From a virus (taxonomy: Duplodnaviria > Caudoviricetes), in the IMG/VR virus record IMGVR_UViG_3300032332_000044, positions 1 through 35,498 of that record: a stretch of 35,498 bases of DNA. The stretch is one strand, 5' to 3'. The notes under the pieces are model-generated. The model had not been told where the DNA came from and did no database searches. It saw only the letters and a list, made by a program, of their open reading frames with translations. Both the position numbers and the translations under genes were made by a program. Of this stretch, positions 2,520 through 35,498 are shown in pieces; within the stretch, counting starts at the first letter, position 1; each line of letters begins with the position of its first letter.

Positions 2520-3733
2520 ATCGCGTCCACCTCTTGAATTCTTTTGCCAATCCATGCCATCACAGGCACTGCCATTGAGTTGCCCAGCGCCTTGTACCTT
2601 GGCCCGTCAGGGGTTGCCTTGCCCTTTGGCTGGATGTCGGTGTAGTTGTCGCCAAAGCCTTGGAGACGTTCGCATTCCACTGGAGTCAGGCGGCGTACTG
2701 CCATTGCTTGCATCAATGTAATTGGCACATTGCCACCGCCAGCGCCATAAGTAGCTGATACCGTTGTACATACATCTCCTAATTCCCGCACCCTACTGTC
2801 TTGGCTGTGCAATTCATATACGGGTTGCGCCACCGCATGGCTGTTTGTTTTGGTGATTGTGAACATGGCCTCACCTTGTTCACCTATGCCGCACCCCGTA
2901 CTCGCGTCAGCGTTTGGGCTTCTAAAGCAATTCATGGTGTTTAACGGGATTGGCTGCGCTACAAACAATCCGCACTCATTACCATCTGGGCCTCCGCTAC
3001 CTTTAGCCCATTTGCTTGTCACGGTGTCGGAAGTGTTTGGGTCAGAGCCGCCGTAGATCGGCATCAGATGCCCTTGTGCTGCATCCTGCACACTTATGAT
3101 TTGTCCTGTTCGGGCGCACAGGCTACCGACTGAAGTGCTTGCGCTAGTGCTGGCGGTAGGTCTTTTCCCCTTTTCTCGGCTCGGCGCAGGATGCCCTTGC
3201 AAGCTGTGGCGCTCAAAAAGAACCGCTGCGGCAGGTCGCCAGTCTCCAAGGTATCCGACAACGAACACACGTTTGCGTCGCTGTGCCACTCCGAAATATT
3301 GAGCGTCAAGCACCCTGTATGCGAACCCATACCCGAGGATTGCCAGCCCTCCGAGGAGGGAACCAAAGTCCCGTCCATCAGCGGAGGACAAAACGCCGGG
3401 GACGTTCTCCCAGACCAGCCAGTTGGGGCGATATCGTTTAGCAATGGCAAGATAGGTAAGCATGAGGTTGCCACGCGGTTCATCCAGTCCTTTTCTGAGT
3501 CCTGCGACTGAGAATGATTGGCATGGTGTTCCTCCAACGAAAACATTGACATCTGCATCAGGCCACTCCTTAAATTTTGTCATGTCGCCCAAGTTAGGCA
3601 CGTCTGGGTAATGATGCTGTAACACCTTGCAAGGGAACGGTTCAATCTCCGAATACGCCACCGATTCCCAGCCCAATGGATGCCAGGCGACACTTGCCGC
3701 CTCAATCCCACTGCAAACTGATAGAAATTTCAT
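2495..3733 (-). CDS. DNA (cytosine-5)-methyltransferase
   Basis: Motif I variant SVCSGIEA, IV GGTPCQSFS, VI ENVPG, VIII QRRKRVF, IX RRLTPVECERLQGF, X RYKALGNS. Confidence 0.95.
   Translation of the reverse strand: MKFLSVCSGIEAASVAWHPLGWESVAYSEIEPFPCKVLQHHYPDVPNLGDMTKFKEWPDADVNVFVGGTPCQSFSVAGLRKGLDEPRGNLMLTYLAIAKRYRPNWLVWENVPGVLSSADGRDFGSLLGGLAILGYGFAYRVLDAQYFGVAQRRKRVFVVGYLGDWRPAAAVLFERHSLQGHPAPSREKGKRPTASTSASTSVGSLCARTGQIISVQDAAQGHLMPIYGGSDPNTSDTVTSKWAKGSGGPDGNECGLFVAQPIPLNTMNCFRSPNADASTGCGIGEQGEAMFTITKTNSHAVAQPVYELHSQDSRVRELGDVCTTVSATYGAGGGNVPITLMQAMAVRRLTPVECERLQGFGDNYTDIQPKGKATPDGPRYKALGNSMAVPVMAWIGKRIQEVDAICKTQQNT
3094..3558 (-). CDS. Nested alternative-frame ORF within the methyltransferase, resembling the M.EcoHK31I beta polypeptide
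   Basis: 154 aa in the +1 frame; AAGGAG 7 nt before the ATG; motifs WQSSGM, CSLSDTLETG, FLSATACKGILRRAEKRGK. Confidence 0.7.
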   Translation of the reverse strand: MQMSMFSLEEHHANHSQSQDSEKDWMNRVATSCLPILPLLNDIAPTGWSGRTSPAFCPPLMDGTLVPSSEGWQSSGMGSHTGCLTLNISEWHSDANVCSLSDTLETGDLPQRFFLSATACKGILRRAEKRGKDLPPALAQALQSVACAPEQDKS

Positions 3734-3798: not shown

Positions 3799-4371
3799 TT
3801 AGAAAAACTCTTCGTCATCCATCACTGGCGCAGGCGCTGGCTTGGCCGCCTTGCGTACAGGTGCTGGCTCCGGCTCAAACTCGTCACCACCATCCGCATT
3901 CATCCCAGCAGGACGCGCAACCCAACTGACTAACTTGAAGTTTGGAACTCGCGTGTTGCCCTTACCAACCTTCTCGGCGGTGCTGTTGACGTACTCGATG
4001 ACCGGCAGCTTGCCACCGTTATCGCCGGCAGCCTTATCGCACTCGTTATAGATCTTCTCGAATCCTTTACAAGGCCCATACGCATTTGCCGACCAATCGA
4101 CCAGGCCGAGTTCCTTTGAATACAGAGTCACAACAAAGCCCCTCTTGTACCCTTCCCCAGGTGATTGGCTCTTAGCGCCCAGCACCTCATCAGGCTGCCA
4201 ATCGCGTACACCAGCACCAATCATCAACCAGCCGGTCTGAACCGAGTCCAGGTCCATAACCACCTTCTTGAGTTGGATTTCCTCACCGTCTCGGTTCGTC
4301 CAGGCGTTAGCCTGGGGTGCGAATCGGATGTAAGAGTTTCCTGATCCATTGTTGTTTGAAAGATTTAGCAT
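3799..4371 (-). CDS. Putative single-stranded DNA-binding/annealing protein
   Basis: Lies between nuclease and methyltransferase/primase; Pro/Ala linker and acidic-aromatic tail DDEEFF as in SSBs. Confidence 0.55.
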   Translation of the reverse strand: MLNLSNNNGSGNSYIRFAPQANAWTNRDGEEIQLKKVVMDLDSVQTGWLMIGAGVRDWQPDEVLGAKSQSPGEGYKRGFVVTLYSKELGLVDWSANAYGPCKGFEKIYNECDKAAGDNGGKLPVIEYVNSTAEKVGKGNTRVPNFKLVSWVARPAGMNADGGDEFEPEPAPVRKAAKPAPAPVMDDEEFF

Positions 4372-5461: not shown

Positions 5462-5664
5462 TTTTCTCTCTCTCTTTCGTGGTCGTTTGAAATGATTGCG
5501 TAAGCCTGTTTGCGTACTTCATTGGTGACCGCGTGACCCAGGTCATCAGGGTCCAGCAGGCGCTTGAGTAGCACAGTCTTATCGCGTGATGATTCGCGCT
5601 CCTTCTCTAGCTGAGTGCCAAGCCAGATGATGTGTTCGCGCATGGTGCGCAGTTGGTCAAGCAT
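5443..5664 (-). CDS. Hypothetical protein
   Basis: 73-aa ORF overlapping both operon neighbours. Confidence 0.7.
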   Translation of the reverse strand: MLDQLRTMREHIIWLGTQLEKERESSRDKTVLLKRLLDPDDLGHAVTNEVRKQAYAIISNDHEREREKWNVSN

Positions 5665-6136
5665 TTTTTGTGATGTACCAGTAGGCGATCAGGGCCGCAT
5701 CTGCGCGGCCATCGTCCTTCGCACGCTTGAACAGTTCGGCTTTGCTTGGGAACAGTTCCATAGCCCTCATGCGAGACGCATCCTTGCCCGCTGCGCGGCC
5801 TACATCCTTCGTCCAGATGACGGGGGTAACATAGGTATGTGGTATCTGCAAAGCGGCCACAACGCCCTCTATGATGCCTGCGCTGCGCCCAAAGTTGAAC
5901 ATACTCGACACGCCCTGACCAGGCATAGCACCCACCCTCTCAATTACGACGTGAGAGTCAAGAAAGCAAACCAAGATAACACGTAACCCTGACGCGCTGA
6001 TATGCCGCTTCTTCGTTTTTCCTGAGTCCACTTCAAGAGTAGGCATGTCAATGACTTCCAGCAGGTTCTGAGTCTCCCAACTAAACACACTGATGGCTCC
6101 GCTGATGCCTGGGTCGATGCCGATGACGAAACTCAT
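5657..6136 (-). CDS. RuvC-like Holliday junction resolvase
   Basis: IGIDPG, VVIE, GVSSMFNFG, DGRADAALIA; ATG 6136 with AAGGAG. Confidence 0.88.
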   Translation of the reverse strand: MSFVIGIDPGISGAISVFSWETQNLLEVIDMPTLEVDSGKTKKRHISASGLRVILVCFLDSHVVIERVGAMPGQGVSSMFNFGRSAGIIEGVVAALQIPHTYVTPVIWTKDVGRAAGKDASRMRAMELFPSKAELFKRAKDDGRADAALIAYWYITKNA

Positions 6137-6363
6137 GCTGCACGCTCCTTCTGCAGCGCAAGCAGCCTGGCTTCCACCAGGGCATCGCAAGCCTCCTGCA
6201 GATTGACAACTGCCGAGTACAGTGGAACGACCTTGCCGGTGGACCAGCGGCTCACCTGGGCCTTGTCAATGCCTGCCGCGTATGCGACATCGCTCAAAGT
6301 GAAACCGGACCGTTCCGCTTTCTCGCGGATGGCTCTGATTGCTTGTTGTGTAGTGGATTCCAT
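6133..6363 (-). CDS. Cro/XRE-like HTH regulator
   Basis: TLSDVAYAAGIDKAQVSRWSTG HTH; first gene of the leftward operon; AGGAG upstream of ATG 6363. Confidence 0.8.
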   Translation of the reverse strand: MESTTQQAIRAIREKAERSGFTLSDVAYAAGIDKAQVSRWSTGKVVPLYSAVVNLQEACDALVEARLLALQKERAA

Positions 6364-8368: not shown

Positions 8369-8471
8369 AGTGCTGCGCTCAAATAGAAAACACGGCCTAC
8401 CTTTTGAGCAGACCGTGTCTGAGATACAGGCATCTGTGAACGATGCCCTGGCATTGATTCCTGATTATTAA
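8277..8471 (+). CDS. Hypothetical protein
   Basis: GAGGTG RBS before ATG 8277. Confidence 0.7.
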   Translation: MKITATFQDEQEAIMAIHSGYAWQTLQEINEVLRSNRKHGLPFEQTVSEIQASVNDALALIPDY

Positions 8472-8737
8472 GCCGTTTCGGCTTCTTCTTCGTCGTCGTA
8501 CTCTTCCTCGTCATCGCCCCAATCTGCCTCGTCGTCTTCAACCAACAACCACTCGCCGGTCTCTTCGTTCAGCCAGTACCAAGCGTCGTACTCAGCGTCA
8601 TACCAGCAATAGCAGTCGTACTCTTCGTCGTACTCGTACTCTTCTCCGTCTTCAAAAAAGCAATCAGACAACGATTCACCGTCGTCGGTGATTTCCATTG
8701 AGGTGGAATTGTTGATGATAAATGTGAATGAAACCAT
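8468..8737 (-). CDS. Extremely acidic, aromatic-rich small protein (89 aa)
   Basis: AAGGAG RBS before ATG 8737; ~36 D/E and no K/R/H. Confidence 0.8.
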   Translation of the reverse strand: MVSFTFIINNSTSMEITDDGESLSDCFFEDGEEYEYDEEYDCYCWYDAEYDAWYWLNEETGEWLLVEDDEADWGDDEEEYDDEEEAETA

Positions 8738-8747
8738 AAAAAACTCC

Positions 8748-9716
8748 TTAAACGTTAATGATCTGACCGCGAAACTCAACCTGATCGTCTGCCCACTTAT
8801 GAACCAACTCAGGCCACAAAATCCTACCACCTTTGAATGTCAGGACCGCAAATCCGGACCGGTGGTTCAGCGGGTTACCCTCGCCATAATCAAACTGTGG
8901 ACCGTAGGGTTCAGCAAGCGTTCCAGTGTCTACACCATATCTATTACCGTTGTAATCGGAAAATGGAGTTACCTTCAAAGAGTGCAAGTGTCCGGTGACA
9001 ATACTTATTCCAGCATTGACCGTGTTGTTGTGGGCAGCGTGGATGCCGGATCTGTAGCGGTGCTTAATGATGCAGTCATTTGTCGGCCAAACAGACCAGG
9101 CAAACTCCCAGGCTGGCAGATGGTCCTGCAGCTTGAACCCATGCACTTCACGGTACTGCGGAGCCTGGGACGCTAGCTTATTGGCAAAGCGTGTATCGTG
9201 ATTTCCCCAAGTAAACAGCAGCTTTACATTGTGCCTGGCTGCCTTGGCCGTTTCCTCAATCTCGCCAAGATGGGCCTGCACCGCCTTGAGTTCTTCTATT
9301 ACGCTAGGAGTCTTGGACCATCCCAGCGGGTCGTGCCTGCTGATAGTAGCCCCGTCGAATGCATCTCCATTAGAGATGACTGCGTGCGGCTTCAGTTCTT
9401 TGATTGCCCACAGCAAGCCACGGTACGCGGTGGTGTACTCGCCAGGCCAGAAATGCGCGTCACTGAAAACGATTATGGTCTGGTCGAGGATGCCGAGATC
9501 CACTCGGTTCAGCGACGTCTGGATTGGCTGCATATACGCATACGCCTTGGCTCGTTCACTGGCACTGACAAGGGGCTGGTTTGAATCTTTCTCTATCCTG
9601 CGCCGACGATTATGTACAGAACGCTCAGAAATATCCAGATGCTTTGCCACTTCAGAGGCAGAACCGCTGCGGTTCCAAACCTTGATAAACTCTTCACGGG
9701 AAACTTTAGGTTGCAT
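8748..9716 (-). CDS. Calcineurin-like metallophosphoesterase with N-terminal HTH
   Basis: SDAH, NGDAFD, GNHD, GHLH; SASEVAKHLDISERSVHNR HTH. Confidence 0.88.
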   Translation of the reverse strand: MQPKVSREEFIKVWNRSGSASEVAKHLDISERSVHNRRRRIEKDSNQPLVSASERAKAYAYMQPIQTSLNRVDLGILDQTIIVFSDAHFWPGEYTTAYRGLLWAIKELKPHAVISNGDAFDGATISRHDPLGWSKTPSVIEELKAVQAHLGEIEETAKAARHNVKLLFTWGNHDTRFANKLASQAPQYREVHGFKLQDHLPAWEFAWSVWPTNDCIIKHRYRSGIHAAHNNTVNAGISIVTGHLHSLKVTPFSDYNGNRYGVDTGTLAEPYGPQFDYGEGNPLNHRSGFAVLTFKGGRILWPELVHKWADDQVEFRGQIINV

Positions 9717-22881: not shown

Positions 22882-24096
22882 TTAAAGTTCCGCAGAAAGC
22901 TGAGTCCCTACATTAGTAATTGAAAGTGCTTGGTTGGTTGTTCTGCCAGTTAGACCAGCAGTAGTTATTGGTGTTCTAGTTAATGATTGACCAGCACCTG
23001 ATATAGCTTGGCTAGTTGCATTTTGACTGCCACCAATAATGTCAATTGTAATATTTACTCCCGATGCCTGAGATAATGTTGGTAATACCCTCATTGAGAC
23101 TGCATGAACTAACGTGAAAAGCCCAGTTGTTGCGTTAAATGCTTGCCCACAGCTTCCTTGAAAATCTTTTTGGAAATACCGCTGGCATAACGCCAACTCA
23201 GTCCCGTATGAACGGTAATCAAAAGATGTGGCTACACTTCCTTTTTCTAGCTGAACATTACCAATTACCCATGTTCCGCTAGTCTGAGCGCCAACAGTGA
23301 ACAATATTTCAATGCCGGTTGTAGCCGCCGCTGGGATGCTAATTTGTGCGCTGTAATTTGTCAGTGTTGAGTTGACTGTAAAAGTACCAGTAGCAATTTG
23401 CGTCTTAGCTGACCATGTATCTGCACTGGTTGCATAATTTGCAGTCCATGTTACTGTCGTAAGCAAAGAATTAGAAATGTTGACAGATAGCGTGGCTGTG
23501 CTACCAGCCATGTCATAAGAATTTAATTGTTCAATCCTCTGACCAATACCTACTGCTGTAACGGATGCAGCACCTGTAACCTGTAAATTATTTTTATTTG
23601 CTCCAGAACCAGCCACTTGCGCTACAGTTACGGTAGCCCCTGTTGCATAGGCATACCATCGATCTACTGATGGATATGTTGGAGAAGTAGTCGGAACAGC
23701 ATTGCCAGATGTACCAGAAGTTGCTCGTTGAGCAATCTGCATCAATCCGTTAATAAGACGATTTTTGAAACCAAAACTGCTTGGCGTATCTGTATATACA
23801 GCTTTTACCGCTGGATATGTACAGAATACGTTTTTGCTTCCTGCTAGAAAATTTACCAATGCATCACTATTAGATGATGATAGGACAGTATCTCGACTAA
23901 GAGTAGTTCCAGAGGATGTATAGGTTCCTATTCCTACTTCCCAATTTGTACCGTCAGTGATACTGTAATAGGTTGTATTTCCATTGCCAACAACAGAAAA
24001 TGATTGGTATCCAGTAGTAGCACCGGCAAGCGTTACAGTGCCAGTACCAGTTGTGGTAGTGGTTTCCTGTACGCGATCATCGAGGACTAGAGCCAT
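22882..24096 (-). CDS. Tail fibre/receptor-binding protein
   Basis: MALVLDDRVQETTTTTGTG anchor; FKNRLING..QR, DRW, VQLEKGSVAT.F..ELALCQRYF. Confidence 0.8.
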   Translation of the reverse strand: MALVLDDRVQETTTTTGTGTVTLAGATTGYQSFSVVGNGNTTYYSITDGTNWEVGIGTYTSSGTTLSRDTVLSSSNSDALVNFLAGSKNVFCTYPAVKAVYTDTPSSFGFKNRLINGLMQIAQRATSGTSGNAVPTTSPTYPSVDRWYAYATGATVTVAQVAGSGANKNNLQVTGAASVTAVGIGQRIEQLNSYDMAGSTATLSVNISNSLLTTVTWTANYATSADTWSAKTQIATGTFTVNSTLTNYSAQISIPAAATTGIEILFTVGAQTSGTWVIGNVQLEKGSVATSFDYRSYGTELALCQRYFQKDFQGSCGQAFNATTGLFTLVHAVSMRVLPTLSQASGVNITIDIIGGSQNATSQAISGAGQSLTRTPITTAGLTGRTTNQALSITNVGTQLSAEL

Positions 24097-32626: not shown

Positions 32627-34054
32627 TTATGCTACTCGCGGAAGATTTCTGCGCAGTGGCTTATTCCAGGATACTTTAGCACCGCCAAATGCACCGATTA
32701 CTGCATCACTGGCAAACGTCAGGCAAAAGGCGTCGGCACGGTCAGGACTCGGGAATCCGCGTTTCCTGATCTCGTCCTTGCCCTCAATCTGAATCTTTCC
32801 GGAACTGGTGAACGAATACCGGACGATAGCCAACTCCGACACCAGCGCCTCGTCCTTGGGCATCTTGCAGTCTCGCCCCTCCAACCAGGCTTTGGCCTTG
32901 TGCCATAACTCAGCCTTCAGATTCCGGTACGTCGCGCCCATCGCGGGACTCTCCGACACATTGATGCCGCGACAGGGAAGATTCAACTCTTTGAGCCGGT
33001 CAACCACTCCCGCGCCCAGGCCAATCGAATCCACTAGGATCTCCATTGGGCGCTCTGACGGCGGCAGAGCCTCGTATTCGGATACCACCGCTCCGGTCAA
33101 CTGCATCAGGTCCAAATTCTTCCACGTCTTAATCGGCTCGGTCACCGCGTTACCCTTGCGCTTGCAGAGTGCCGACCTGTCACTACCAAACCTGGCAACG
33201 TCCAGACCCCAGACCATTGGCGCTGACGCGCTAGGCTCAACGTCCCGCTGCTGCGCCATCTCCAGCAACTCCATAGGGATGACAGTATCGTCATCTGAGC
33301 GTGGAAACTCGCCCAGCACGCGAATCCGGTAAGCATTGCTCTCCTCACCGTAGCGTGCTGCCATCTCGCCGAGGTACGCCTCCGAGACTCGCGGAGAGTC
33401 GGCGCATGACACCTTCATGGTGATCCAGTCATCCTTCAGCCGGTTGTGGGTGTCGTAGAAGAAACCCGTACTGCGCACAGGGTTACCGAGTAGCAATGTC
33501 ACCGCCTTGTGACCCGACATGGAGCCGGCTGCAGCCTCGAACACCGCCTCTGGGATACCGGATGCCTCGTCTGCCACCAGCATGACGTTGTCGCTGTGGA
33601 CGCCTTGCAGTGCCTCGGGTTGCTCGGCTCGGCTTGTCCTGGCCGAGATGAACGCCTCGTTTGGCGCTTCCTTGACCTCAACCCTGTCCTGCTTGACATC
33701 CAACTGGTCTTGCAGCATGGGCGGTAGCTGCTTAACCCAGCGCTTCAGTTCCGCGAACAGGGCGTCGTAAAGCTGGCTTGACGTTGGCGCTGTAACGACA
33801 ATCTTTACAGGGAACCGCAGGAACAGATACCAGAGCATTGCCCAGGCGCTGGCGGTTGACTTGCCTACGCCGTGGCCGGAGCGTACGCTAATGCGTCGGT
33901 TTCCATCCGCGATGTGATTCAGAAACTCTACTTGCCAAGTATCAGGCTCGGTATTCAGCACCTCCCTGACGAACAGCACAGGGTCGTTGCGGTAGCGCAG
34001 GGCGAACTCGATAAACGGGTTCTCGGGAACTTCCAAATTTTTTTTTGTAGCCAT
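32627..34054 (-). CDS. terL: Terminase large subunit
   Basis: Walker A SGHGVGKS, Walker B VADEAS, GNP, GLDVARFGSD, SPDRADA. Confidence 0.93.
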   Translation of the reverse strand: MATKKNLEVPENPFIEFALRYRNDPVLFVREVLNTEPDTWQVEFLNHIADGNRRISVRSGHGVGKSTASAWAMLWYLFLRFPVKIVVTAPTSSQLYDALFAELKRWVKQLPPMLQDQLDVKQDRVEVKEAPNEAFISARTSRAEQPEALQGVHSDNVMLVADEASGIPEAVFEAAAGSMSGHKAVTLLLGNPVRSTGFFYDTHNRLKDDWITMKVSCADSPRVSEAYLGEMAARYGEESNAYRIRVLGEFPRSDDDTVIPMELLEMAQQRDVEPSASAPMVWGLDVARFGSDRSALCKRKGNAVTEPIKTWKNLDLMQLTGAVVSEYEALPPSERPMEILVDSIGLGAGVVDRLKELNLPCRGINVSESPAMGATYRNLKAELWHKAKAWLEGRDCKMPKDEALVSELAIVRYSFTSSGKIQIEGKDEIRKRGFPSPDRADAFCLTFASDAVIGAFGGAKVSWNKPLRRNLPRVA

Positions 34055-34221
34055 AGTGCGCAATCAGGTGGGGGTAGGGGGTCAGGCAATGTGCGGGTCA
34101 GGGGAAATGTGCGTTCGTAACTCGGTAGGTGTTTAGGTGCTGCCACAACCGCCCCGCCGCCACGGCCACCACGGGGGGGTCGGGCGGCCAGGGCGCGGCC
34201 ACCTGGCGACGGGCTGCAGCC

Positions 34222-34449
34222 TGTGGATAACTCAGCACGCTGCGCGCCCCCTCTGACGCTGGGCTATGGTGCGCGTAAGCCTATGATTCCATTGATGATT
34301 ATGCTGATCGTCAGCACTAATCCCACAATGTGTATTTGATACAGTGTCCATTATGTGAAGTTAGAACGGGTGTTTATGCGTGTTTATGCTTAATCTTTAA
34401 GCAAATGCACTCATTCTGTGGATAACTTTGGCATCTGGTCTGTGGATAA
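34222..34449 (-). promoter_or_regulatory. Three perfect DnaA boxes (TTATCCACA)
   Basis: TGTGGATAA at 34222-34230, 34417-34425 and 34441-34449, each in CTGTGGATAACT context and in the same orientation. Confidence 0.7.
34334..34361 (+). other. dif-like XerC/XerD recombination site
   Basis: ATTTGATACAG-TGTCCA-TTATGTGAAGT (11-6-11); right arm matches XerD consensus TTATGTTAAAT at 9/11. Confidence 0.65.
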
Positions 34450-34857
34450 CTGCTCAACCACTTCGACGTGGCGCAGCGCCTCCATGCGTAAACCCTGGAT
34501 GCTGATGTTGACCTGACTGGCTTTCTCAGTGCCGTACGTCTTCCGATCCCACCTCTCAGCCAGCCACTGGCGCGTCCGGATGCGCTGCACGTCGCGCTGG
34601 CCGTTGTCGACGTCCATGCCGTCCGCTATGGTGAGTGTCTCGCAGGCTAAATGCGAGGCCGCTTCCACCCGCGCGCGTGTAATTATAGTTTCATAGTCGT
34701 TGTCCGATATCCATGTATCGAGCGCACGCCGTCCGATGCCTAGGCCACGGCATATGTCTGCCTTGCTACGTCCTTCCTCAAACATCGACAGGATCAACTC
34801 GTCATCGATGTCCTCCAGCAGTGCGATATCGGCTCTCACTTTCGGATTCCCAGGCAT
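34411..34857 (-). CDS. terS: Terminase small subunit
   Basis: N-terminal HTH; ARV..A..LA....IAD, RIRTRQWLAERWDRKTYG; upstream of terL. Confidence 0.8.
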   Translation of the reverse strand: MPGNPKVRADIALLEDIDDELILSMFEEGRSKADICRGLGIGRRALDTWISDNDYETIITRARVEAASHLACETLTIADGMDVDNGQRDVQRIRTRQWLAERWDRKTYGTEKASQVNISIQGLRMEALRHVEVVEQLSTDQMPKLSTE

Positions 34858-34937
34858 CAGATGACCCTCCAAGCGTTTTTCGTTGTGGCAAGCACCATGC
34901 GTACCACCTCATCCAATAAATCACGTCCTGCGCTCAT
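34857..34937 (-). CDS. Possible 26-aa peptide coupled to terS
   Basis: MSAGRDLLDEVVRMVLATTKNAWRVI*; TGATG overlap with the terS start. Confidence 0.4.
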   Translation of the reverse strand: MSAGRDLLDEVVRMVLATTKNAWRVI

Positions 34938-35498
34938 CTCTTGCCCTTTCTGCTGCCTTTGTGTCGAATAACTTGCCACCCTTAAATGGTTTGCTGATGT
35001 CGATGTCGTTCTCCATGTCCTCGAACCCGCTGCTTCCTTGCGGCGTCACGGGAACCATTGTCGTACCTGGCAGTGCTGCTTTGATCTCGCGAACCTGAGT
35101 CAACGTCGGACCCGTCATCACCACCTCCAGTTCCGCAAGTGTCCAGACTGATCGCGGGTTTGGCTCCTTGCGGAACTGCTCGTACCAGGTAGCCATCTGC
35201 TTGTCCCTCACGATCACCATCAGGCTCCCGTCGGCCATCCGGTGTTCCATGCAATCGATTTTAGGCATCTGCTCAATGCCTGACTCAACCGCCCACCTGG
35301 TGAGCGCCTTGTAGGCCGCGATCATTCCCTTGATGGCTTTCTCTAACCTTTCCTCATCACGCGCCTGGCTTGCCTCCCAAATGCGCTCACGCTGCGCGTT
35401 GACCTTCCTGCGGAACTCGGCATCCACCAAGTCGATCACTCGGTCTATCCCGTAAACACGTTCATGGTCCATCTTCGCTGTTTCCATATCCACCATGA
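34921..35498 (-). CDS. Hypothetical protein (3' part; starts at 193 across the junction)
   Basis: Continuous ORF across the terminal repeat. Confidence 0.8.
   Translation of the reverse strand, partial: MVDMETAKMDHERVYGIDRVIDLVDAEFRRKVNAQRERIWEASQARDEERLEKAIKGMIAAYKALTRWAVESGIEQMPKIDCMEHRMADGSLMVIVRDKQMATWYEQFRKEPNPRSVWTLAELEVVMTGPTLTQVREIKAALPGTTMVPVTPQGSSGFEDMENDIDISKPFKGGKLFDTKAAERARDERRT
35376..35498. repeat. Terminal direct repeat, right copy
   Basis: Identical to 1-123. Confidence 0.95.

What the first reader, a model, noticed from the sequence alone, without database searches (positions are those of the whole stretch)
34334..34361. dif-like Xer site in an integrase-free tailed phage
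Seen: a 28-bp 11-6-11 site, ATTTGATACAG-TGTCCA-TTATGTGAAGT, in the non-coding gap between terS and terL, and no recognisable integrase anywhere in an apparently complete genome. Known: chromosomal dif has this layout, the XerD arm consensus is TTATGTTAAAT, and XerCD-hijacking elements (CTXphi, VGJphi, TLC; IMEX) are mostly inoviruses or islands. From memory, the left arm resembles Comamonadaceae-type dif arms. Inference: this podovirus may borrow host XerCD, either to integrate at dif or to resolve multimers of its circular form. That would be an unusual lifestyle for a tailed phage.
Basis: partly seen in the sequence, partly recalled or inferred. Interest (0 to 1): 0.85.

Follow-up and report, generated by a model that had tools for sequence, protein, structure and literature searches.

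The report
Host Xer site at phage ends
This freshwater phage and hundreds of relatives carry, beside their DNA-packaging genes, a close copy of the site bacteria use to untangle chromosomes (dif), with its middle changed from the host's, so host enzymes likely recombine the phage with itself, probably joining its predicted repeated ends into a circle, rather than inserting it into the chromosome.

Summary
The 28-mer is real and dif-like. It scores 27 bits against a profile of dif-like sites from one likely host family; the next locus scores 2, and 0 of 100 simulated genomes reach 27. It is conserved in 75 of 75 testable close relatives and in 29 of 30 near-complete relatives, none with an integrase. 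The arms follow the host dif, but the central hexamer never does (0 of 79 distinct sites), and no host junction or prophage was found. Integration at dif is therefore unlikely. The site stays beside a C-run/G-run element. In the cultured relative phiM5 the annotated 357-bp terminal repeat ends 13 nt after that element. The site is thus predicted to be duplicated at both virion ends, where XerCD could circularise the genome, as Cre/loxP does for P1. Binding, recombination and the termini are untested, and a sister clade mostly lacks the site (79 of 80). The scan noted similar sites in other phages before.

The parts
34334..34361 (+). dif-like 28-bp Xer core: predicted XerC arm 34334-34344, central hexamer 34345-34350, predicted XerD arm 34351-34361
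   Evidence: host-family sites
34417..34425 (-). exact DnaA box on the XerD side, overlapping the 3' end of terS
   Evidence: a DnaA-type box lies within 120 nt on the XerD side in 286 of 287 distinct phage contexts against 1 of 30 host sites; consensus recalled
34441..34449 (-). second exact DnaA box on the XerD side, inside terS
34222..34230 (-). exact DnaA box on the XerC side
   Evidence: XerC-side boxes in 64 of 287 contexts
34276..34288 (-). IHF-like site on the XerC side, one mismatch to the recalled consensus here, exact in many relatives
   Evidence: exact in 65 and relaxed in 92 of 287 contexts
34150..34181 (-). C-run/G-run element, homologous in layout to the element just inside the end of the phiM5 terminal repeat
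   Evidence: (between site and terL in 177 of 201 loci with a site)
34136..34142 (-). conserved GCAC-type motif; predicted right end of the terminal repeat at about 34142 (inferred from phiM5)
34411..34860 (-). terminase small subunit (Sf6-type)
32627..34054 (-). terminase large subunit, 52% identical to phiM5
5657..6190 (-). RuvC-like Holliday junction resolvase; candidate for finishing a XerC-made junction (inferred)

Best explanation
The 28-mer is a conserved dif look-alike, likely bound by the host's XerC and XerD, that lies inside the phage's predicted direct terminal repeat and would recombine with its own copy at the other genome end to close the injected DNA into a circle (or join genomes into concatemers), not with the host chromosome. 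Shown: the site, its conservation, the host-family arms, the non-host central hexamer, the link to the end element, and no recombinase gene found. Inferred: the host family (that of a Limnohabitans bin, Comamonadaceae type), XerCD binding, the terminal repeat (by homology to phiM5), and circularisation. Most speculative: activation. A XerC-first exchange finished by the phage RuvC-like resolvase or by replication, with IHF and DnaA shaping the ends, is my preferred route.
For: (1) Dif-like beyond chance, and conserved: mean majority fraction 0.86 in the site against 0.51 and 0.57 in the flanks over 287 contexts. (2) Arms track the host family: C at position 9 in 42 of 42 distinct phage sites, as in most host sites listed. 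(3) The central hexamer departs from the host's on the XerD side in all 79 distinct sites and on the XerC side in 37 of 79, which fits recombination with an identical copy only. One relative (L367) has arms identical to the Rhodoferax-type arms except at position 2, yet keeps the phage hexamer. (4) phiM5 is homologous across the head module (terL 52%, capsid 51%, portal 43%). Its annotated 357-bp terminal repeat covers the terS 3' part and ends 13 nt after the same C-run/G-run element. (5) The site follows that element: it is inverted relative to terS in one clade, and in L596 it lies about 80 nt before the element although terS lies after it. (6) 5 of 28 distinct contig ends within 300 nt after the G-run fall at +8 to +18 (expected 1.0, P=0.003). 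(7) P1 cyclises its terminally redundant DNA by RecA or Cre-lox (PMC3973344, one passage).
Against: No binding or recombination data. The termini are inferred from one relative's GenBank annotation, whose basis I did not see; no raw reads were served. The contig-end cluster weakens to P=0.06 if only the 20 ends within 100 nt are counted, G-runs break assemblies anyway, and contig starts inside terS are spread, not sharp. psi/cer-type control needs supercoiled DNA (10.64898/2026.02.23.706985, passage) and FtsK activation is confined to the septum (PMC9226527, passage), so neither known control explains circularising linear DNA, and no XafT-type activator was found. The site is dispensable in the wider lineage: 79 of 80 loci of a sister clade (terL about 73%) score under 15 bits, 5 of 5 complete members tested lack an integrase, and one complete closer relative (G330) lacks the site. 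Position 11 is G here where host sites nearly always have A.
Confidence: 0.45

Rival explanations
1. The site is a psi/cer-like multimer-resolution site: the genome circularises by other means, and XerCD resolves dimers of the replicating or carried circle, with DnaA boxes as part of an origin.
For: Same sequence evidence for self-only recombination. Known accessory control works on supercoiled direct repeats, and accessory sequences lie on the XerC side, where the IHF-like site sits in this clade. One site-less relative, MW202879, has a serine resolvase gene just after terS and the end element. A satellite-like element next to a tRNA-Arg gene carries an intact site of this type while the host dif lies on another contig.
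Against: No ParA found; the closest plasmid terminases are at most 38% identical. It does not explain why the site stays at the predicted genome end. The resolvase occurs in only 1 of 50 records.
Confidence: 0.23
2. The site is an attP for VGJphi-type integration at host dif: XerC exchanges one strand pair and replication resolves the junction.
For: The window's XerC-side triplet equals the host's and the mismatches are on the XerD side, the VGJphi layout (PMC5357621, passage); 42 of 79 distinct sites share that triplet. No integrase found. Freshwater host genomes are mostly incomplete bins, so prophages may be missed.
Against: 37 of 79 sites lack the triplet, and it varies among close relatives. 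A scan of 185,579 genomes gave 8 loci; the 3 with a dif-like site near terL have it intact between terS and terL. 76 of 76 informative metagenome loci are intact (4 more end before the site). No joint or host-like loose end at the site among those listed for four runs (4 loose ends not shown). 10 of 401 family genomes match a hybrid-site pattern, 9 scoring 3 bits or less.
Confidence: 0.12
3. XerCD binds but does not recombine: the site with its DnaA and IHF boxes is a decoy or end-cap that titrates host proteins or shields the DNA end.
For: DnaA boxes travel with the site, even when it is inverted. Outer arm positions are degenerate in part of the window's clade. IHF-like and DnaA boxes occur near terS in relatives with no dif-like site there (Venkman, HTVC106P).
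Against: Spacing of exactly 6 bp and a fixed non-host C at position 16 (74 of 79) are better explained by selection on strand exchange than on binding alone.
Confidence: 0.13
4. The site is a late promoter or terminase signal that only resembles dif.
For: A -10-like hexamer reads toward terL on the minus strand, and the site lies in the packaging region.
Against: No sigma-70 promoter called in 34000-34600. The site points away from terL in 59 of 200 loci. Host-family detail in both arms would be unexplained.
Confidence: 0.07

Closest known systems
Chromosomal dif of Comamonadaceae (Rhodoferax ferrireducens; PMC2731167, passages)
   Same: 28 bp, 11-6-11; arms close to the family type; best host sites match at 22 of 28
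   Different: On a phage; central hexamer non-host in 79 of 79 sites; flanked by DnaA and IHF-like boxes that host sites lack (1 and 0 of 30)
Plasmid Xer sites psi (pSC101) and cer (ColE1) (PMC5357621, 10.1101/2024.04.05.588136, 10.64898/2026.02.23.706985; passages)
   Same: Host XerCD acting on a mobile element's own directly repeated site; degenerate inner XerC arm; flanking protein-binding sites
   Different: No plasmid partition gene found; accessory boxes look like IHF/DnaA, not ArgR/ArcA (those not tested); substrate predicted to be linear virion DNA
Phage P1 Cre/loxP cyclisation (PMC3973344, one passage)
   Same: Site-specific recombination between redundant ends to circularise injected DNA (predicted here)
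   Different: P1 encodes its recombinase; here none was found and the host's would be borrowed; short fixed repeat predicted rather than long redundancy
IMEX: VGJphi, TLCphi, CTXphi (PMC5357621, PMC9226527; passages)
   Same: Integrase-free phage with a dif-like site; the window's hexamer has the VGJphi pattern
   Different: Tailed dsDNA phage; no integration found; no XafT-type gene; single site
Sinorhizobium phage phiM5 (MF074189; LUZ24-like lineage per PMC10386132, passages)
   Same: Homologous head and packaging genes; same end element after terS
   Different: phiM5 has its own integrase and no match to the dif pattern

Membership tests
Xer recombination site (dif/xrs) | Two 11-bp arms around a 6-8 bp central region | tested here: met
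Xer recombination site (dif/xrs) | XerD arm better conserved than XerC arm; arms match host dif | tested here: met
   per-position counts; host sites
Xer recombination site (dif/xrs) | Inner arm bases form a palindrome | tested here: inconclusive
   2 of 5 inner positions in the window, but also 2 of 5 in the host-family consensus; position 11 is non-canonical here
Xer recombination site (dif/xrs) | Bound and recombined by XerC/XerD | not testable with these tools
   needs gel shift and resolution assay
IMEX (any type) | Found integrated at host dif | tested here: not met
   none found; host genomes incomplete, so absence is not proven
IMEX, VGJphi type | Central region matches dif on the XerC side | tested here: inconclusive
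   met in the window and 42 of 79 sites, not in 37 of 79
IMEX, TLCphi type | Central region like dif, divergent XerD arm, XafT activator | tested here: not met
   0 of 79 central matches; XerD arm conserved; no DUF3653
IMEX, CTXphi type | Two inverted sites about 90 nt apart folding in ssDNA | tested here: not met
   single site; best other locus 2.1 bits
psi/cer-type plasmid site | Accessory sequence beside the XerC arm bound by PepA with ArgR or ArcA | not tested
   only IHF-like and DnaA boxes were scored
psi/cer-type plasmid site | On a stably kept plasmid replicon | tested here: inconclusive
   no ParA; no close plasmid relative; other partition systems not searched
P1 Cre/loxP cyclisation | Phage-encoded recombinase | tested here: not met
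P1 Cre/loxP cyclisation | Site inside the terminal redundancy | tested here: inconclusive
   predicted from phiM5; weak contig-end signal; no raw reads

The most novel reading that the evidence does not exclude
An abundant lineage of freshwater LUZ24/phiM5-like podoviruses puts a host-tuned Xer site inside its terminal repeat and uses host XerCD, with IHF and DnaA as accessory factors, to circularise linear virion DNA: a borrowed Cre/loxP and a third way of exploiting Xer besides integration and plasmid dimer resolution.
Probability: 0.4. Interest if true: 0.8.

Novelty: new variant of a known kind. Interest (0 to 1): 0.62.

Why it matters
If true, it explains how some short-terminal-repeat phages without a recombinase close their genomes, and implies an FtsK- and supercoiling-independent route of Xer activation. 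It also warns that a dif-like site in a tailed phage is not evidence of lysogeny. The family-specific arms give a host hint for a very common uncultured phage group (7,698 related terminases at E<=1e-50 among 7,996 scored). Four full-text searches (listings only) returned no paper whose title or abstract opening describes this; the library lacks most subscription papers.

Tried and rejected
Promoter reading: rejected. KOPS-directed FtsK activation: a KOPS-like octamer points at the site from the XerC side in 98 of 141 loci but 0 of 59 in the inverted clade, inside a G-rich tract, so not counted (consensus recalled, also quoted). Read depth as a sign of a terminal repeat: only contigs were served, so unusable. 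Contig starts inside terS as left ends: no sharp peak. Capsid homologues in 5 of 401 host-family genomes: 4 fetched, distant lineages, no site above 9 bits; G243 not examined. A swap of site for own recombinase across relatives: only partly seen (integrase in 2 of 5 distant GenBank relatives, resolvase in 1 of 50; the sister clade has neither). Atlas searches on ORFs 34921-35496 and 3799-4371 gave no function. BLAST of the module against cultured phages gave only chance-level hits. A recalled likeness between the phage hexamer and the psi central region could not be confirmed in the paper searched and is not used. No paper on phage C72C1 was found. Look-ups in earlier findings by place and by a second word set returned nothing. 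No structure or complex prediction was run.

Full report
Observation. The 28-mer is at 34334-34361 as stated, between terS and terL. The record is a closed 35.5-kb phage genome; the 123-nt repeat at its ends falls inside a coding region and is most likely an assembly overlap. Portal, capsid and adaptor belong to the SU10 Pfam families and are homologous to those of Sinorhizobium phage phiM5, which PMC10386132 (passages) places in the LUZ24-like podovirus lineage. No integrase, resolvase, ParA or DUF3653 was found.

Is it dif-like beyond chance? I drew host sites from genomes rather than from memory. A degenerate pattern matched 85 of 301 genomes in the family of a Limnohabitans bin, mostly once each, and its reversed control matched none. 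A profile from 28 distinct sites in 30 of those loci scores the window site 27.0 bits. The best other locus scores 2.1 and the best of 100 simulated genomes 16.5. The pattern was designed with the window site in view, so it favours sites of this type; the printed Rhodoferax dif (PMC2731167, passages) is an independent check and matches at 22 of 28. A Polynucleobacter bin has a similar dif, so the host family is a likely assignment, not a firm one.

Conservation. All 75 of 80 terL loci with enough upstream DNA carry the site 247-356 nt before terL. At 74-80% terL identity, 122 of 151 loci score at least 15 bits, and many of the misses have short upstream DNA; at 60-74%, 0 of 15 do. Of 320 terS-selected loci 307 carry it; these sets overlap and are not independent genomes. 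Among 30 near-complete relatives 29 have it and none has an integrase. Results against: G330 lacks it, and so do 79 of 80 loci in a sister clade. Dif-like sites of other types sit at the same place in phage C72C1 (terL 48%) and L253 (62%), judged by eye.

What varies. In 79 distinct sites the arms follow the host type, but the central hexamer is never the host's. None ends like the host's, 74 have C at position 16, and 37 differ in the XerC-side triplet too. Xer strand exchange happens in this region (PMC5357621, passages). VGJphi integrates with XerC-side homology only, and the window fits that layout, but a family-wide integration role would fix that triplet. I infer selection to recombine with self and not with the chromosome.

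Search for integration. One scan of 185,579 genomes with a terL alignment gave 8 loci, all in bins. The three with a dif-like site near terL have it intact. Of 80 metagenome terS loci, 76 reach the site and all are intact. Laying contigs of five runs showed no joint at the site (tables were cut). A hybrid-site pattern hit 10 of 401 family genomes; 9 scored 3 bits or less, and one belongs to a satellite-like element beside a tRNA gene, away from that genome's dif. Incomplete bins limit all of this.

Position. The site is inverted relative to terS and terL in one clade, with its DnaA boxes still on the XerD side, which argues against a terL promoter. A C-run/G-run element lies between site and terL in 177 of 201 loci, usually followed by a GCAC-type motif. 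In L596 terS abuts terL, the element lies upstream of terS, and the site again lies just before the element. So the site follows the element. In phiM5 the annotated 357-bp direct terminal repeat spans the terS 3' part and ends 13 nt after the G-run, one base before the same motif. Mapped onto the window, the repeat would end near 34142 and include the site, the IHF-like site and the DnaA boxes. Five of 28 distinct contig ends within 300 nt after the G-run fall at +8 to +18 (P=0.003, or 0.06 on the 20 ends within 100 nt; one end was reassigned by hand). This is a weak hint only.

Mechanism. A site in a direct terminal repeat is present at both ends of every virion molecule. Recombination between the two gives a circle, as Cre-lox does for P1 (PMC3973344, one passage); between molecules it gives concatemers. 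The weak point is activation: psi/cer control needs supercoiling and FtsK acts at the septum. XerC has a basal ability to form junctions that replication or another resolvase completes (PMC9226527 and PMC5357621, passages), and the phage encodes a RuvC-like resolvase. I give circularisation or end-joining 0.45, multimer resolution 0.23, binding without recombination 0.13, integration 0.12 and promoter or packaging signal 0.07. That XerCD binds the site is about 0.9.

Prior notes and print. My reading before one search was integration or dimer resolution. Earlier scan notes on other phages suggested end-joining and the P1 analogy; I tested that here through phiM5 and the end element. Those notes are unreviewed and are not counted as support. 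Four literature searches (listings only) showed Xer use by filamentous, tailless, gokusho- and satellite phages and by plasmids, and nothing on terminal-repeat circularisation. PMC8163748 (passages) gave no termini data for Venkman.

Verdict. A real, conserved, host-tuned Xer-like site; probably not an attP; most likely a self-recombination site at the genome end. New variant of a known kind; interest 0.62.

Noticed in passing
G161:C5:9940-9967 (L729, L730): Satellite-like element (large primase/helicase ORF) next to a tRNA-Arg gene carries an intact Xer-like site with a phage-type hexamer and an IHF-like box; the host dif is on another contig.
   Followed up: partly
L715:966-2390 (MW202879): Relative without the dif-like site has terS, a short palindrome, the end element, then a serine resolvase gene.
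   Followed up: partly
L549:3980-4430: Sister clade without the site has, before the end element, an IHF-like site, repeats of the same short palindrome as MW202879, and a palindrome resembling a Fur box (recalled).
   Followed up: no
L297:216-238 and 23152-23183 (phiM5): An inverted repeat inside the phiM5 terminal repeat has matching arms just upstream of the phiM5 integrase gene.
   Followed up: partly
L714:35300-35560 (HTVC106P): After terS: a DnaA box, an 8-8-8 inverted repeat resembling a recombinase core, and an IHF-like site.
   Followed up: no
L713:1-70 and 38615-38624 (Venkman): The linear record breaks at the start of a terS-like gene, with an IHF-like site and DnaA boxes at its ends but no dif-like site.
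   Followed up: partly
L086:2785-2880 (phage C72C1): Two dif-like sites in opposite orientation about 55 nt apart with an IHF-like site between them, just before the end element.
   Followed up: no
L140: terS, site, DnaA boxes and end element are all inverted relative to terL compared with close relatives; real inversion or misassembly.
   Followed up: no
L166, L087 and their clades, about 20 nt from the XerC arm: A short motif (GAATAC) is conserved in two clades with different upstream context; possible accessory site.
   Followed up: no
window 3094-3558 (-): A 154-aa ORF in another frame lies wholly inside the DNA methyltransferase gene; no Pfam match.
   Followed up: partly
window 8468-8830 (-): Very acidic 120-aa ORF with no family match; could be a DNA mimic.
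   Followed up: no
G001:C236 (L258): Another family member in a Burkholderiaceae bin has arms identical to the dif of the Limnohabitans bin but a different hexamer.
   Followed up: partly
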